NCBI RefSeq assembly: GCF_055900595.2
Contig: NZ_CM148325.1
Strand: one strand, 5' to 3'
DNA: 64,000 nucleotides
In this document: positions 36,001 to 42,000 of the stretch, piece by piece
Layout of the letters: each line of letters starts with the position of its first letter
Numbering within the stretch: position 1 is the first letter of the stretch
Program-made: the position numbers

Positions 36001-39000
36001 TTGTAGTGTTGATTATTTCTGGTAATGAATGCGGAATTAAATCTGGCCGGATTGTATTTTTGCTATATCTATTTTTCAGGAGATTATTATTAAATAGAAA
36101 AATAACAATGGTGATTATCTCCGGTTGAGCTGGAGTCACGTATGCCAGCGAGTGCTTTCTTCCGGGCCTTCCTTCACTTCAGAGAAAGAGCCTATGGAAA
36201 AGAGGCAATCATCAGGCTCTTTTTGAGTCATATGCGCCGATAATCAACTGTCTTGAACGTAAAAATTATGGAGCAACATGATGCTACGATTCATTTCACT
36301 CTTCGTTCTTTCTGAGCATTGCGTTCAGGATGGTCAGCAATTTACGCATACAGTCAACCAGCGCCACTTTTTTGGTTTTTCCGGCTGCTGGCAGATGCAT
36401 GTAAAACGCCTCTTTCACCGGATTAAACCAGGTTACCACAAGCGCTGCCATGTGCAGGGCTGCTCTTGCCTCCGTACGCGCACTGGCGTCGTTCGGCCAG
36501 CAGATATGTGTGGGATAACAGGGATGTTATGTGAACTGAACTGTGTTTTGTTAGCGGGGGATGTTTATTGATGATTCGGGAGTGTTTAAGACCTGATGGC
36601 GTTATGCACCCAAGTTTATTTTATATAAAGATCCAAAAGCAAAAACCCGCCTTGTGGGCGGGTTCTTAAGAATTAGTGGTGCCCGGAATCGGAATGAAAC
36701 TGATTGTATAACAAATTGTTTTATATAGATTATTTTGTATTTGTTGTTTTTGAGGCCACCAATGAGGCCCCCATGTGCAATTCGAATTCTTTTGACGCTA
36801 TAATCCCTCTTTTTTGTGCTTTGCTGTAATCATTTGGTCTGGTTCGATATGCTGAATTGTGGAATCGTACTTAACGCGTTTGTTAGCTGGTCAGAACACT
36901 TAGCGCTGTTTGTCTGAAACTGGAATAGGCTTCTTCCCAGTTAATCTGTGTATTACCAAATACCATCGGTTTAACAAATCGTTGAAAGCGCAATTTGTGT
37001 ACAGGATAATCCCGGAGTGCATCCAGCCCTTTCTTAAGTTCATCAACTGGTGAGCTACAAAATTGTGGGTACTGGTTACCATAGCTGAATACATATCTGA
37101 ACAAAATTTTTCAATACAGGAACATTCACACCTTTTTCCCTGACAATGCAGTAGTTGTCGTAAATGTGACGTACCAGAAACTCATCATCCTGTTGTTCGG
37201 GATTACGAAGATGTGCTGCTGTTCTTCGCATCATGGAGATGAGCTTTTCAGCCTGAGTGGATAAAATGGTGGCACAGGGGAATGCTGTTACAGGTGTACC
37301 TTTACCCGTTAACTCCGTGACAAGGGAATAAATATCTCTGCTTTCCGGATGTTCCAGCAGAGTGCTTTCCATCAACTCCAGCTTAATAAATGGACGAAGA
37401 CAGGGGACTTGTGCAAATGTCTGGGGATAACGTACCGAGATTTCGTTATAACGATACTCATCACGTGTTATACGGGCGTTTTCATTATCCAAGCTGAAAA
37501 TGTCAGAATTATGAATAACATCCGTGATTATTTGCACGATTTCCTTGCGAATTTTTCTTCTCTTGTCTCTGCCATTTTGCATAAAGTTCTCTGTTGGCAC
37601 GAGCTTTATATCAATATCTTCTGACATTCTGTTTAGCGAGATACCTGCTTTTGATAATGCGGTACCTCCTGCAAACACGAGAGTATGTGTTTCTGGTTTT
37701 ATTTCTTTTAATAATCTTAAAAGATCAACCACAAAATAATCTTTTTCGACGATAGCGACAGATTCAATATCCAGTGCATCGGCAACGTCAGGAAATAATG
37801 ATGTTAATTCAGGCATTGATTTTACTTTTCCCTACTATTAACATTCTTTTAAATCGAGAAGGTGTTTTTATCCCCAGAGATACAGGAATTTGTGTGGACT
37901 GACCTTTATTGTAGCATTCCGTTGCTCCTGCCAGACGGTATCTGATATTCAGGCGCTCCAGGGCCTCTGTAATTACTGCAGCAGAGCCCCCAGGCGCTGC
38001 GGGCATGATTTTCCCAGTGATGATGTTACGACGGGCTTTGGTGTAAACACCATAGCCCACTTTCATCAACTTACCTTCGTTTACCAGTGTACGAAGAGCT
38101 CTGCCAACCTGATCATAGCCAGCGATATCCCTGAAATCATCCCGGGTGAACACATAACGTTTTGAACGGTTCAGTCGGGACTGAATACGGTCTTTTGTAG
38201 TCATGTTTCCTCCGAAAAATTTTCACAATGATAGCAAAAATATGACATGTTTAATAGCGGGGCAAGGCCACATTACCTGTCTGCTAATACATTTGGATAG
38301 TGCCTGGCAATTATGTCATTTAGCCTGTCAACCAGTTCTGGTTTCCTGAACGTGATGTGTGCGGAGCCCTTCTTAAAGTATCTGATGCTGAACATCTCAT
38401 CTTCATAGCACGCTTTGCCCTGAACGGAGCGGATGTGATCATCCAGCCGAATGATGATATTTTCCCGGCTGTCGGGGATCGGTTTGCCGCTGAACAGATG
38501 CAGCATTCTTTCCAGGTCAGCGAGTCGATCTGCCTGTTGCCCGGTGATAAGATGCAATCCCCATCGGTCCCATCTCACCAGATTGTTGACGATAATTTTA
38601 TTGCCAAATTTACAGGGGCAATTGGTTTTGTAATTCCAGCTCAGACCTCTGAAGAGGTTGATCACACCTCGCTCAAACACGTCATCCTTATTCTGGTGCA
38701 GTTGTTCAAACGTACTCAGGATATTCGCCTCGCTGATTTCCGGAAAGTTATCGTACTCCAGTGAGCGGTACCATGTATCATGGGCCTGCGCATCCATTAA
38801 TGACAGCATCCCGGAACGTTGCATCAGGTCACGCCAGATTTCGCGATCGAGATTGCGGGTGATGGCTTTCATTGCGGTTTCCGGTTTCTCCATGAGCCTG
38901 CAGCCGCAGCGAAAATCCTGTTTCATGGCCCAGTCCCGGGCGGTTTTACCGCCAATGCTTTCCGTCAGTACCGAGATTTCAGCCAGTTGCCGGATAAGTG

Positions 39001-42000
39001 TGTCGATTTGCAGCAGCGCACTCTTTCGTACAGCCAGAATGTGGCGGATACTAGTTGAGCAGATAACGTCCGTATGTCCGTTGACCAGTTCCGGGCGGGA
39101 GATTGTGATATCTGACATCATCGTTTTTCCTTTTGGTTTATAAACGAAAACGCCAGCCGTATTCAGGCTGGCGTCAGTGGAATAAAGTCTGGTGAGTAAG
39201 ACTCACCTGTTCTGTTGCAGAAGCTGCAGTTGGCGCAGGGTACGGATATCTTCCCTGGCCTGTTCAATGCAGGGCAGCAGTGCTGCTGAATCCGTTTTAT
39301 CCTCATCGTTGTCGAAGATAATCCCTGATTCGCAGTCAATATTGTCCTGCAGCCACGCAATCAGAATATCCAGCGCTGTTTCCGTGGTTAATGATTTCAT
39401 GTTGTGAATTTCCGGGTTACCAGTCGAAAGTGGGTAAATCCGGCAGGCATTCAGCGCTGGCATCCAGATGAATGAGACTGACGCCATAACGTCGGGTAAG
39501 TGTGACAACCAGACGGCGGAACGTTTTTGACAGCCCCAGGCGTTTAAGCCGCAGAACCGGGTATGACCACGCATCGGTACGTAACAGATATCCGCTACCT
39601 GTAAAATGAATCCATTCTGATTCGCCGGTGTCATTCGTCTGATGCGACAGCGAGTACAGCCAGGCGTTGTCTGTTTCCGTGATATGCGCGGTACTACAGC
39701 GTATACCGCTCAGGGCAGCAGAGGGGGGTATGCTGTCTGTTGAGGTCCGGTCAGATTCATCAACAACACGAAGGGAGTAGCCATTATCGCAGACCACGTT
39801 AATCAGTTCGGCAAGCTCAACACCATCGACGTCAACGACAATTCGCCCCATGTTCAGTGCCTGTACGTTAACGCTGTCAGCTTCCAGCGTCAGGGCCAGT
39901 TTCATCGTTTTGCCTCCGGATGCTTGCCCTGGGTAATGTTATTTACCATTCTGTAATTGTTCCGGGTCATCAGGCCGGTCGCCCTGCGAGCCCGGAGAAT
40001 ATCAATGCTGTTGATTAACTGCGACGGGGCTCCTGCGCTGAATCCCGGCTGGTCGGTACGTACCAGCGCGTATTTTTCAACGAGAAAGTTCACCGCGTCA
40101 CACAGTGAAATCCCTGCCTCAATATGCTGCTCAATCACACGTTCATCAGCGAACGGTGTGTCATTCAGCGTGAGGCCATAGTGCTGGTCCAGCAGTCGGG
40201 TGAGCAGTGTCTGCCAGATGGTGACGGGAGACGGGCAGCGCGATGCCGCCCGTACGTGTGTGTCGGGTAATGTTTTCATACTGAAGATTTTCCTGATATG
40301 CAGATATAAGAAATGGAAAAGTGGCGTGGAGAAAGCACCAGGCCGGAGCAGAAGACTATTCCGGAGGGTTACTTTCCGTTTCGGTCGCAGGATAAACAGC
40401 CAGATAAACGTAACCACAGGACCCGAGGGTGTCGGCATCGCAGGTCAGCCCTTTCGCATACAGCGTGACGGTATGCTGATGGCGGGGATTCAGTTCACCG
40501 CTGGTGAGCATGAGTTCCAGTTGTTTCATCAGCAGTGGAAAAGCCTGGTCCAGATGGTATGCATCCGCATTGCTGAACCGGCCCCTGATACCGGCGCGGT
40601 CTGCAAGGTAATGCAACCGGTTACCCTCCTGCAACAGACGGGCGCCGAAACAGGGCGTCACGGTGCAGGGCAGCCCCCACCAGGGGCGGTCTTTGTTGTC
40701 GTCGGGAAGCGTTGTTCCGGGGAGTGTGTCCGACATGATAAAATCCTCACAGAAAATCGGTGAATGATAGTTTAACGATGACGGGTCAGCCGGCGCGCAG
40801 ATCGGCTTCGGTGAAGGTATATTCGTTGATGAGAAGGGCCTCATCCACAGCGGTGTCTGAGGTCAGCCAGTCGTACTTGTTTTCCAGCTGGCGGTACAGC
40901 CAGAAGGCCAGGTCGCGCAGGGCTTCGCTGACAGCGGCTTCCGCATCGGTTGTCATTGCCTGACCAGTCGGACTGTTCCGGGTGACGGTGATATCCATGC
41001 TGTACGGATGGCAGTAACGTCCCCGGTGACTGATTTCAGCCTGAAGCTGCCAGAAGTTACGTTTCTGCACCGCATGCAGGGTATCCGCGATACGATGAAG
41101 CTCACGGTCCTGAGGGGCATATTCCCTGATTTTCCGGGGTGTCGCTGGCTGCCAGTGCCAGTGCCCTTCAAAACAGGCTCCGTCCCCCTGGCTGCAGAAT
41201 CCGCTGAACCAGATGCACGGCTCTTCCATAAACCTGCCGTTGCTGAGCCGGAAAACGCGCTGGCGGAGGTCAATTCCGAAAATGCCACAGACCTCCCTGA
41301 AGTCCTCATACACGTTTTCATACCAGTTGCTGTCAGCATGATGCTGACGGTACCAGTCGCGGGCTTTTTCCTGTGCGGTGGAGGATAGCTCATGCAGTGT
41401 ATACACGGTGGTGGTGATAATTCTGCTCATCAGAATGCCCTTACTGACTCAGTTCAGAGTGACGCTCATCAGCCGGACATACGGGCCAAAACTGTCCTTA
41501 CGGCGTTCAGCAAATACGGCCAGCACACCGGGAATATCCTGCACTTCACGACCGGTATACGTTTCAGTGCTGCCGTGCCAGCGGTATTTGCCGGTACAGA
41601 ACGGAAAAAGACGGGATGCAGGATGCTGTTGGTGAATACGCATGGCTTCACCACGGGTGATGATTTTCATAATGGGATACCTCTGAAGACAGAAGATAAA
41701 AGTGAAAACAGGTGTGATGTGGTTGTGACGGGTTAAAGCAGACCATGTTCGGCAAAGGAGAAAACCTGGCTGCCACCGACTATCAGATGGTCCGGCACCC
41801 GGATATCCACCAGGCCCAGTGCCTGTACCAGACGTTCCGTGATAAGCCGGTCTGCCTTGCTGGGTGTGACTTCACCGGACGGGTGATTGTGCGCCAGTAC
41901 CACGGCAGCGGCATTGTGGTACAGGGCGCGTTTAATCACTTCCCGGGGATGGACTTCCGTGCGGTTGATGGTGCCGGTGAAGAGGGTTTCACCGGCAATC

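What the first reader, a model, noticed from the sequence alone, without database searches (positions are those of the whole stretch)
38273..39905. Cluster of unassigned genes downstream of cbtA
Three consecutive minus-strand ORFs (162 aa, ~65 aa, 282 aa) lie between cbtA and the AbiE pair. None has a motif I can assign. They sit among TA and abortive-infection modules, a context where new defence or stress genes are often found.
Basis: inference. Interest (0 to 1): 0.35.

Follow-up and report, generated by a model that had tools for sequence, protein, structure and literature searches.

The report
Conserved island genes downstream of cbtA
The three open reading frames are real, already catalogued "unknown function" genes of a very common E. 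coli genomic-island backbone. They travel with the cbtA toxin gene rather than the AbiE pair, and their relatives sit in the first-transferred region of conjugative plasmids, so they look like helpers for a mobile element settling into a new host, not a new defence system.

Summary
There are three intact minus-strand genes: 39417-39905 (162 aa), 39203-39400 (65 aa) and 38273-39121 (282 aa). They lie between cbtA and a decayed AbiE pair.

All three are already filed in function-unknown families:
- 162 aa: Pfam DUF5983_N plus DUF5983.
- 65 aa: "DUF957" in RefSeq.
- 282 aa: Pfam DUF4942.

All three are under purifying selection (dN/dS 0.05-0.36). The block occurs in 4139 of 5426 complete E. coli genomes, with a median of two copies.

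Across 80 Enterobacterales loci, DUF4942 follows cbtA in 63 of 72 informative copies. DUF5983 (30/72) and DUF957 (21/72) are optional. AbiEi follows in only 8 of 69. What lies after DUF4942 is variable cargo, often defence genes.

None of the three matches a PADLOC defence model. Homologues of all three occur on conjugative plasmids. DUF4942 (YdiA/YgfB) and the DUF5983 C-domain occupy the last slot before oriT/relaxase, and a published survey lists both among the families most enriched in plasmid leading regions.

The best reading is backbone "establishment/anti-defence-type" genes, with molecular functions still unknown. I also found a covarying terminator hairpin before every DUF4942 gene, and natural DUF5983_N-DUF957 fusions. 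Interest is low to moderate.

The parts
39417..39905 (-). DUF5983 family gene (162 aa; Aec77/L0008/YeeW-type). It has two separable domains: an acidic N-domain (aa 1-58, pI 4.05) and a conserved C-domain (aa ~66-162).
   Evidence: Pfam PF25638 (4.6e-32) and PF19419 (1.6e-22). RefSeq WP_000761698.1. dN/dS 0.10-0.25. The start overlaps the cbtA stop in ATGA. The domains occur as separate genes in other genera. K-12 YeeW equals the N-domain only.
39203..39400 (-). 65-aa acidic protein gene (RefSeq 'DUF957 domain-containing protein'; Aec78/L0009), starting 16 nt after the DUF5983 stop.
   Evidence: RefSeq WP_000839250.1. 373 homologue clusters, Enterobacterales only. dN/dS 0.05-0.36. No hit in the current Pfam-A copy. 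Fused in frame to the DUF5983 N-domain in Serratia sp. DD3 and Hafnia alvei. pI 4.16.
38273..39121 (-). [not shown]
   Evidence: Pfam PF13708 2.4e-68. 2130 representatives at 50% identity. dN/dS 0.11-0.16. AlphaFold model pLDDT 88, with no solved structural relative. Similarity to other E. coli copies stops 16-34 nt inside its 3' end.
39149..39175 (-). Intrinsic-terminator-like hairpin (10-bp stem with 7 G-C pairs, then a T-rich tail) between DUF957 and DUF4942, ending about 25 nt before the DUF4942 start codon.
   Evidence: Scan hit and sequence. An equivalent hairpin is present in 66/78 unique DUF4942 upstream regions, against 0.8% of shuffles. There are 27 different complementary stem sequences, and the hairpin is present whatever the upstream gene is.
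39902..40276 (-). cbtA (type IV toxin), the gene immediately upstream. It is translationally coupled to DUF5983.
   Evidence: Pfam CbtA_toxin 1.5e-60. ATGA overlap.
40356..40736 (-). yeeU/cbeA-family antitoxin, the first gene of the presumed transcription unit. The only promoter-like site in the stretch lies just upstream, at 40764-40735.
   Evidence: RefSeq annotation. Promoter scan.

Best explanation
The three ORFs are genuine protein-coding genes of the conserved backbone of the CP4-44/CP4-57-type integrative islands of Enterobacterales. That backbone runs GTPase ... DUF932, ArdB/KlcA antirestriction, RadC/JAB, DUF987, CbeA, CbtA, DUF5983, DUF957, DUF4942.

Shown:
- DUF5983 and DUF957 are read from the cbeA-cbtA transcription unit, by ATGA coupling and then a 16-nt spacer.
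- A conserved terminator-like hairpin then separates that unit from DUF4942, the terminal backbone gene. After DUF4942 the sequence becomes variable cargo: here a decayed AbiE pair, elsewhere DarTG, Mrr-like, HNH or Wadjet genes, or simply the chromosome.
- The gene set is homologous to the families that dominate the leading (first-transferred) region of conjugative plasmids. There, DUF4942 (YdiA/YgfB) or a DUF5983 C-domain protein is the last gene before oriT.

Inferred:
- The trio acts when the element enters or settles in a new host, in establishment or counter-defence. It is not an anti-phage defence system.
- DUF4942 is a stand-alone copy of a domain that some bacterial and phage homologues carry in front of a SAM-dependent DNA methyltransferase domain. 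It is most likely a DNA- or methyltransferase-associated factor that helps incoming DNA escape restriction.
- The acidic DUF5983 N-domain and DUF957 work as one unit next to CbtA, because they occur fused in some genomes. The C-domain is a separable module.
For: Real genes:
- Pfam matches.
- dN/dS 0.05-0.36 with saturated dS between genera.
- Identical annotated proteins in RefSeq.

Backbone, linked to cbtA:
- The block is in 4139/5426 E. coli genomes and is collinear in 3434, with a median of 2 and up to 10 copies.
- The same gene order appears in four E. coli loci with different flanks.
- In 80 loci from other species, CbtA is upstream of DUF4942 in 63/72, YeeU in 58/72, DUF5983 in 30/72 and DUF957 in 21/72. 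AbiEi is downstream in 8/69.

AbiE is cargo:
- It is present in 665 genomes, nearly all at >=99% identity.
- Its GC3 is 0.36-0.42, against 0.55-0.60 for the trio.
- Defence genes sit in the same slot elsewhere (Wadjet-like annotation).

Leading-region homology:
- DUF4942 homologues are in 4366 plasmids, 3988 of them conjugative.
- DUF4942 is the last gene before mobA/relaxase in an IncK2/Z plasmid, with ardA, psiB, psiA, ParB and DUF905 further in. It also lies in the pOXA-48-type leading region, with JAB, KlcA and ssb.
- A DUF5983 C-domain protein holds the same slot in pEclE2-1.
- DUF957 homologues are in 1414 plasmids, 1293 of them conjugative.
- Samuel et al. 2024 (PMC11541004), Supplementary file 3, lists DUF4942 as family 24 (2171 members, FDR p=0, median ORF position 1 from oriT) and family 76. 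It lists DUF5983 as family 72 (618 members, p=6.6e-199, position 2). DUF905, DUF932/YubP and KlcA are families 2, 3 and 9.

Methyltransferase link:
- 460-543-aa homologues consist of DUF4942 plus a C-terminal class I methyltransferase domain.
- Phage hits are annotated as DNA methyltransferase, as is phrog_6263.

Other points:
- No PADLOC match.
- Fusion of the DUF5983 N-domain to DUF957 in Serratia sp. DD3 and Hafnia alvei.
- Coupling and terminator.
Against: - No experiment is known for any of the three families. The literature search found only catalogue mentions.
- Enrichment in leading regions does not prove an anti-defence role. Toxin-antitoxin and maintenance genes are enriched there too.
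- The chromosomal islands are not shown to transfer, and many are decayed. The genes may serve another role, such as stabilising the island or modulating CbtA.
- DUF5983 and DUF957 are missing from more than half of the cbtA-DUF4942 loci, so the three genes need not act together.
- The stand-alone DUF4942 has no methyltransferase domain.
Confidence: 0.55

Rival explanations
1. DUF5983 and DUF957 (with or without DUF4942) are additional components of the CbtA/CbeA toxin-antitoxin module. They could be a second, directly binding antitoxin, a chaperone or the operon's regulator.
For: - The DUF5983 start overlaps the cbtA stop in ATGA.
- Full-length DUF5983, or the N-domain-DUF957 fusion, is always immediately downstream of cbtA. 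[quoted passage not shown]
- The N-domain and DUF957 are strongly acidic (pI 4.05 and 4.16), while CbtA is basic (pI 9.1).
Against: - DUF5983 is absent from 42 of 72 DUF4942 copies, 63 of which have cbtA upstream, and DUF957 from 51. The TA pair therefore works without them.
- K-12 keeps only a 64-aa N-domain remnant next to a functional cbtA/cbeA.
- Plasmid DUF5983 C-domain genes sit next to oriT without any cbtA.
- The fold evidence is below any reliable threshold.
Confidence: 0.25
2. The three genes form a new anti-phage defence or abortive-infection system.
For: - They lie beside TA and AbiE genes.
- Defence genes (DarTG, Mrr-like PDC-S02, HNH/type IV, Wadjet-like) sit next to DUF4942 in other genomes.
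- The function is unknown.
Against: - No PADLOC model matches any of the three.
- They are invariant backbone, not part of the variable slot. That slot starts only after the DUF4942 stop codon.
- They are present in about three quarters of E. coli genomes, in several copies per genome, which is unlike typical patchy defence systems.
- Their homologues are enriched at the oriT-proximal end of plasmid leading regions, together with known anti-restriction and SOS-inhibitor genes.
Confidence: 0.07
3. DUF4942 is itself a DNA (restriction) methyltransferase, as some database names say ('restriction methylase').
For: - Several homologues carry the source names 'restriction methylase' or 'restriction endonuclease subunit M'.
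- It matches phrog_6263 'DNA methyltransferase'.
- Foldseek labels reported by Samuel et al. read 'Methyltransferase domain'.
Against: - In the 282-aa protein, Pfam finds only DUF4942.
- The methyltransferase domain of the long homologues is a separate C-terminal domain (residues ~305-411 or 437-514) that the window protein lacks.
- The names are most likely propagated from the fused proteins.
Confidence: 0.05
4. The 65-aa ORF is not a gene of its own. It would be a spurious or frameshift-derived reading: the C-terminal part of a longer DUF5983 product made by programmed frameshifting, or an AntiFam-type artefact.
For: - A 2026 preprint reports an AntiFam entry (ANF00264, 'frameshifted phage proteins') lying next to, or fused with, DUF5983 downstream of cbtA, and proposes programmed frameshifting.
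- The current Pfam copy has no model that hits the ORF.
- In the window the reading frame stays open for 103 codons upstream of the ATG.
Against: - dN/dS is 0.05-0.36 in its own frame.
- The start position and length are conserved.
- The upstream extension is closed within 3-15 codons in most loci, so no conserved frameshift product exists.
- The fused proteins in Serratia and Hafnia are plain in-frame fusions of the DUF5983 N-domain to DUF957. The C-domain is encoded elsewhere. This explains the 'fused or separate' annotations without any frameshift.
- The identity of ANF00264 with DUF957 is my inference. I could not check it.
Confidence: 0.04

Closest known systems
Conserved right-hand module of E. 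coli/Shigella tRNA-associated islands (CP4-44, CP4-57, CP4-6; LEE/933L L0007-L0010; SRL PAI orf53-56; AGI-3 Aec77-79)
   Same: The gene order is the same: cbeA, cbtA, DUF5983, DUF957, DUF4942, preceded by DUF932, antirestriction, RadC/JAB and DUF987. Proteins are 85-100% identical to annotated RefSeq entries.
   Different: K-12 CP4-44 is truncated. It keeps only YeeW, the 64-aa N-domain of DUF5983, and lacks DUF957 and DUF4942. In the window the module is followed by an AbiE pair, an arrangement found in about 12% of E. coli genomes.
Plasmid leading-region families YdiA/YgfB (DUF4942; families 24 and 76) and DUF5983 (family 72) of Samuel et al. 2024, Nature 635:186 (PMC11541004)
   Same: They match the same Pfam families. 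They are transcribed towards the end of the element, as the plasmid genes are transcribed towards oriT, and they are the terminal gene of the block. The neighbours are also homologous: DUF905, DUF932, KlcA/ArdB and JAB.
   Different: Protein identity is only 33-43%. The plasmid genes are not next to cbtA. The plasmid ydiA in L086 is preceded by a ~450-nt structured non-coding region rather than a short terminator hairpin. The island is chromosomal, and no oriT or relaxase was seen in the window.
DUF4942-methyltransferase fusion proteins of phages and bacteria (e.g. Pseudomonas phage phiPSA1 gp22, phrog_6263)
   Same: They share the DUF4942 domain over residues ~90-279 at 24-39% identity.
   Different: The window protein lacks the C-terminal SAM-dependent methyltransferase domain.
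CbtA/CbeA (YeeV/YeeU) type IV toxin-antitoxin system
   Same: Same operon, with translational coupling to cbtA, and strong co-occurrence of DUF4942 with cbtA (63/72).
   Different: The characterised system has two components. DUF5983 and DUF957 are dispensable in most loci, and nothing shows that they act on CbtA.

Membership tests
Pfam DUF5983 (PF25638 N-domain + PF19419 C-domain) | HMM match above the gathering score over both domains | tested here: met
   109.9 and 80.1 bits against a cut-off of 27. Profile coverage is 1-55/56 and 3-90/90.
Pfam DUF4942 (PF13708) | HMM match above the gathering score | tested here: met
   230 bits against a cut-off of 25. Profile coverage is 1-189/190.
DUF957 (RefSeq naming) | Sequence membership in the family that RefSeq calls DUF957 | tested here: inconclusive
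   The identical protein WP_000839250.1 is named 'DUF957 domain-containing protein', and homologues carry that name. However, the Pfam-A copy searched gives no hit at E<=0.01.
Known or candidate anti-phage defence systems (PADLOC-DB v2) | Match to any defence-protein HMM | tested here: not met
   Zero families for all three proteins. The neighbouring AbiEi and AbiEii match strongly.
CbtA/CbeA toxin-antitoxin module (as extra components) | Same operon, immediately adjacent to cbtA | tested here: met
   ATGA overlap between cbtA and DUF5983, and a 16-nt spacer to DUF957. Conserved order.
CbtA/CbeA toxin-antitoxin module (as extra components) | Obligatory co-occurrence with the toxin | tested here: not met
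   DUF5983 in 30/72 and DUF957 in 21/72 of DUF4942 copies, 63/72 of which have cbtA upstream. Plasmid DUF5983 occurs without cbtA.
CbtA/CbeA toxin-antitoxin module (as extra components) | Neutralises or regulates CbtA toxicity | not testable with these tools
   Needs co-expression or binding experiments.
SAM-dependent DNA methyltransferase ('restriction methylase' names) | Class I methyltransferase (Rossmann) domain with a SAM-binding motif | tested here: not met
   No methyltransferase Pfam family in the 282-aa protein. The domain is present only in 460-543-aa homologues. No Rossmann-fold match.
Plasmid leading-region (early-transferred) gene families | Homologues located between oriT/relaxase and the ssb-psiB-ardA block of conjugative plasmids | tested here: met
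   DUF4942: L086 and L085. DUF5983 C-domain: L090. Published enrichment statistics in PMC11541004 Supplementary file 3. For DUF957, only plasmid presence was shown.
Plasmid leading-region (early-transferred) gene families | The window copy itself lies next to an oriT and is expressed early after transfer | not tested
   No relaxase or oriT was identified in the window. Expression timing needs experiments.
Glyoxalase/bleomycin-resistance fold (claimed for DUF5983 by DPAM, bioRxiv 10.1101/2024.01.30.577995) | Significant structural similarity of the C-domain to glyoxalase-fold proteins | tested here: inconclusive
   [not shown]

The most novel reading that the evidence does not exclude
DUF4942, and the DUF5983/DUF957 pair, are uncharacterised counter-defence or establishment factors shared by plasmid leading regions and chromosomal islands. 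DUF4942, the first gene to enter a recipient on many IncI/IncK-type plasmids, could be a new kind of anti-restriction protein, for example one that recruits or mimics a DNA methyltransferase partner. The acidic DUF5983 N-domain plus DUF957 could be a two-piece protein that can be split or fused and that modulates CbtA or a host defence. The covarying terminator before DUF4942 would set its dose.
Probability: 0.3. Interest if true: 0.6.

Novelty: already known. Interest (0 to 1): 0.28.

Why it matters
As a genome-scan finding it is ordinary. The genes are catalogued, annotated and present in most E. coli.

It matters modestly because these are among the most widespread genes of unknown function in Enterobacterales mobile elements. 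DUF4942 and DUF5983 relatives occupy the very first transferred positions of thousands of resistance plasmids. Learning what they do would bear on how plasmids and islands establish themselves in new hosts.

The leads found here make that question more approachable: the linkage to cbtA, the domain fusion, the conserved terminator, and the defence-cargo slot right after DUF4942.

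Tried and rejected
- **Sequence searches of solved structures.** Single sequences and profiles of DUF4942 and DUF5983 found nothing.
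- **Foldseek.** afdb50 was unavailable. BFVD returned only methyltransferase-fused or unnamed phage proteins.
- **Family scans.** NCBIfam gave no hits. PADLOC gave none for the trio. Rfam gave nothing in 35.5-44.5 kb.
- **The search for related loci with the 75-sequence alignment.** This failed because the alignment was too diverse. It was repeated with 10 sequences.
- **Literature.** Searches for yeeW/cbtA and for ydiA plus 'leading region' gave no functional study.
- **tRNA/att site.** I looked for one to place the island end. There is none in the window.
- **HNH-like beta-beta-alpha site.** I considered one around invariant H255/N268.
- **Identity of AntiFam ANF00264 with DUF957.** This could not be verified from the preprint text.

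Full report
**Observation.** The ORF listing confirms the three minus-strand ORFs at the stated coordinates:
- 39417-39905, 162 aa.
- 38273-39121, 282 aa. It has two adjacent ATGs, and RefSeq uses the second.
- A 143-aa ORF at 39203-39634, whose conserved part is the 65-aa gene 39203-39400.

Upstream is cbtA (39902-40276, Pfam CbtA_toxin 1.5e-60). Downstream are AbiEi (37809-38204) and AbiEii (37076-37816). The sequence shows the cbtA stop and the first ORF's start overlapping in ATGA. A 16-nt spacer leads to the second ORF and an 81-nt spacer to the third.

**Identity.** The window is E. coli. The 4.5 kb around the finding is 100% identical to many complete genomes. In RefSeq the three genes are annotated as "DUF5983 family protein", "DUF957 domain-containing protein" and "DUF4942 domain-containing protein".

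Pfam confirms DUF5983_N plus DUF5983 (4.6e-32, 1.6e-22) and DUF4942 (2.4e-68). The 65-aa protein has no hit in the current Pfam copy. NCBIfam and PADLOC give nothing for the three.

Older island papers list the same genes as L0008-L0010 (LEE/933L) and orf54-56 (SRL PAI). Database names include Aec77, Aec78 and Aec79. In K-12, CP4-44 retains only YeeW, which is the N-domain of DUF5983 (71% identity over 52 aa). K-12 has no DUF957 or DUF4942, which helps explain why nobody has studied them.

**Coding status.** I compared each gene with 13 diverged copies: E. coli paralogues, E. albertii, Salmonella, Mixta, Yersinia, Trabulsiella and others.

| Gene | Pairwise dN/dS |
|---|---|
| DUF5983 | 0.10-0.25 |
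| DUF957 | 0.05-0.36 |
| DUF4942 | 0.11-0.16 |
| cbtA (for comparison) | 0.09-0.33 |

dS was often saturated, and there were no internal stops.

The in-frame region upstream of the 65-aa gene is closed within 3-15 codons in most loci. The 143-aa reading in the window is therefore a chance extension. No conserved frameshift product with DUF5983 exists.

**Distribution and neighbourhood.**
- The three-gene block matches 4139 of 5426 complete E. coli genomes. It is collinear over >=80% in 3434, with a median of two and up to ten copies per genome.
- Four annotated E. coli loci show the same backbone: GTPase ... DUF932, antirestriction, RadC/JAB, DUF987, antitoxin, CbtA, DUF5983, DUF957, DUF4942. 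What follows DUF4942 differs in each: AbiE, Wadjet-like genes, an IS3, or a tRNA-Ser 150 bp away.
- A scan of one genome per species returned 80 Enterobacterales loci. I mapped them by tblastn with the window proteins.
  - Of 72 DUF4942 copies with enough upstream sequence, 63 have CbtA, 58 YeeU, 30 DUF5983 and 21 DUF957.
  - Of 69 copies with enough downstream sequence, 8 have AbiEi and 4 AbiEii.
- In E. coli this AbiE pair occurs in 665 genomes, nearly all at >=99% identity, and 656 carry the junction with DUF4942. The DUF4942 3' end itself occurs at 5455 places in 3462 genomes. In the other copies, similarity stops 16-34 nt inside the gene's 3' end.
- AbiE also has a lower GC3 (0.36-0.42 against 0.55-0.60). 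In this window AbiEii is frameshifted.
- In other species the slot after DUF4942 holds DarT-DarG, a Mrr-like PDC-S02 protein, or HNH/type IV restriction-like genes.

The genes belong with cbtA. AbiE is one of several cargo modules inserted after the backbone ends.

**Links to conjugative plasmids.**
- DUF4942 homologues (33-38% identity) are found in 4366 of 72,556 plasmids, 3988 of them conjugative.
- In an IncK2/Z plasmid the gene is the last one before mobA(nikA)-relaxase. ArdA, PsiA, PsiB, ParB and DUF905 lie further in. From established knowledge of IncI-type plasmids, oriT lies upstream of nikA, so this is the oriT-proximal end of the leading region.
- In a pOXA-48-type IncL/M plasmid it lies among JAB, KlcA-type antirestriction and ssb genes before mobA-traI.
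- A protein with a DUF5983 C-domain occupies the same last-before-mobA slot in pEclE2-1.
- DUF957 homologues occur in 1414 plasmids, 1293 of them conjugative.
- The homologues of the island's DUF905, DUF932 and KlcA genes are families 2, 3 and 9 in the same table.
- That paper treats uncharacterised leading-region families as candidate anti-defence genes, and notes that TA genes are over-represented there too.

**What the proteins look like.**

*DUF4942* is a large family, with 2130 representatives at 50% identity.
- W96, D202, H255 and N268 are invariant across 75 diverse members.
- The AlphaFold model is confident (pLDDT 88, pTM 0.81). It has a long N-terminal helix, a helical bundle and a small beta/alpha subdomain.
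- Some 460-543-aa homologues, including phage proteins annotated as DNA methyltransferases, carry DUF4942 in front of a class I SAM methyltransferase domain. The window protein lacks that domain. Names such as "restriction methylase" are therefore not justified for it.

*DUF5983* has two separable domains.
- In Serratia, Yersinia ruckeri and Edaphovirga, the C-domain (~105 aa) is a separate gene after RadC/JAB.
- In Serratia sp. DD3 and Hafnia alvei, the N-domain (aa 1-58) is fused in frame to DUF957, giving 118-121-aa proteins. This Rosetta-stone fusion argues that the acidic N-domain (pI 4.05) and the acidic DUF957 (pI 4.16) act together.
- It also offers a simpler explanation than programmed frameshifting for a 2026 preprint's report of an AntiFam entry "fused or adjacent" to DUF5983 downstream of cbtA. 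That this entry equals DUF957 is my inference.

**A conserved terminator.** Between DUF957 and DUF4942 lies a hairpin with a 10-bp stem (7 G-C pairs) and a T-rich tail, at 39175-39149. It ends about 25 nt before the DUF4942 start.

An equivalent hairpin stands in front of DUF4942 in 66 of 78 distinct upstream regions, against 0.8% of shuffled controls. It has 27 different but complementary stem sequences. It is present whether the preceding gene is DUF957, DUF5983, CbtA or YeeU.

DUF4942 is thus set apart from the TA transcription unit by a conserved intrinsic terminator or attenuator. How it is transcribed, by read-through or from an overlapping promoter, is not resolved. The plasmid homologue in L086 instead has a ~450-nt highly self-complementary non-coding region upstream, which I did not analyse.

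**Interpretation.**

Shown:
- The genes are real, conserved and already catalogued.
- They form the end of a ubiquitous island backbone.
- They are linked to cbtA, not to abiE.
- Their homologues sit in plasmid leading regions.
- There is no match to known defence proteins.

Inferred:
- They serve establishment or counter-defence of the mobile element (confidence about 0.55 for the overall picture).
- DUF4942 is a DNA- or methyltransferase-associated factor.
- The DUF5983 N-domain and DUF957 form one functional unit.

The main rival is that DUF5983/DUF957 are accessory components of the CbtA/CbeA module (0.25). A new defence system (0.07), a true methyltransferase (0.05) and a spurious 65-aa ORF (0.04) are all unlikely.

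**Verdict.** The feature is already known at the level of gene families, and no new kind of system is evident. Interest is low to moderate (0.28). It rests on the fact that these very common genes have no known function and now have concrete, testable leads.

Noticed in passing
window 39149-39175 (minus strand); L002-L084 upstream of each DUF4942 gene: A terminator-like hairpin with a T-rich tail lies directly upstream of DUF4942. It is conserved in 66/78 distinct loci (0.8% in shuffles), with 27 different complementary stems, and it is present whatever the upstream gene is.
   Followed up: yes
L016 ~7350-7520, L028 ~9540-9887 (Serratia sp. DD3); L024 ~600-951 (Hafnia alvei); L013, L019, L022, L025, L027, L034, L039 after the JAB gene: There are natural in-frame fusions of the DUF5983 N-domain to DUF957 (118-121 aa). 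In several genera the DUF5983 C-domain is a separate gene placed after RadC/JAB. This may explain a preprint's 'programmed frameshift' proposal for AntiFam ANF00264.
   Followed up: partly
window 36883-37816 (minus strand): AbiEii is split into a 246-aa and a 73-aa ORF, and RefSeq marks it as a frameshifted pseudogene in identical genomes. The AbiE pair next to the finding is therefore probably inactive. It has a lower GC3 (0.36-0.42) than the backbone genes.
   Followed up: partly
L064 10933-12643; L070 10902-11909; L072 11032-12669; L069 11011-14390; L002 1-6491: In other species the slot immediately after DUF4942 holds different defence modules: DarT-DarG, a Mrr-like PDC-S02 protein, HNH/type IV restriction-like genes and Wadjet-like genes. 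In some loci it holds a second P4-type integrase. This suggests a cargo/defence hotspot at this island end.
   Followed up: partly
window 40786-41430 (minus strand): A 214-aa ORF between the DUF987 gene and the yeeU antitoxin has no Pfam family and is 'hypothetical protein' in RefSeq. It is conserved at 50-94% identity in a subset of loci (L004, L006, L008, L032, L047, L084). It is less well catalogued than the three flagged genes.
   Followed up: no
window 39401-39634 (minus strand): The 143-aa ORF that extends the 65-aa gene upstream, overlapping the end of DUF5983 in another frame, is not conserved as an open frame in other loci. It is a chance extension.
   Followed up: yes
L086 8500-8960: About 450 nt of highly self-complementary non-coding DNA lies upstream of the plasmid DUF4942 gene (ydiA/ygfB), next to oriT. 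It may be a single-strand promoter of the Frpo type, but I did not analyse it.
   Followed up: no
window 44527-47049 (minus strand): An 840-aa ORF between the IrmA-like gene and Ag43 has no significant Pfam family and is 'hypothetical protein' in RefSeq. It has hydrophobic N- and C-terminal regions.
   Followed up: no
window 13000-26000: A long stretch has very low G+C (0.28-0.35), against 0.50-0.58 in the flanks. It lies next to kps capsule export genes (kpsE and kpsF at 33.3-35.5 kb), so it is presumably the serotype-specific capsule region. I did not examine it.
   Followed up: no
window 58462-61097 and 61475-61900: There are two adjacent IS66-family transposase ORFs, one of them truncated, plus an IS3-type HTH ORF at the far end of the island. 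This is evidence of decay and rearrangement in this part of the island.
   Followed up: no
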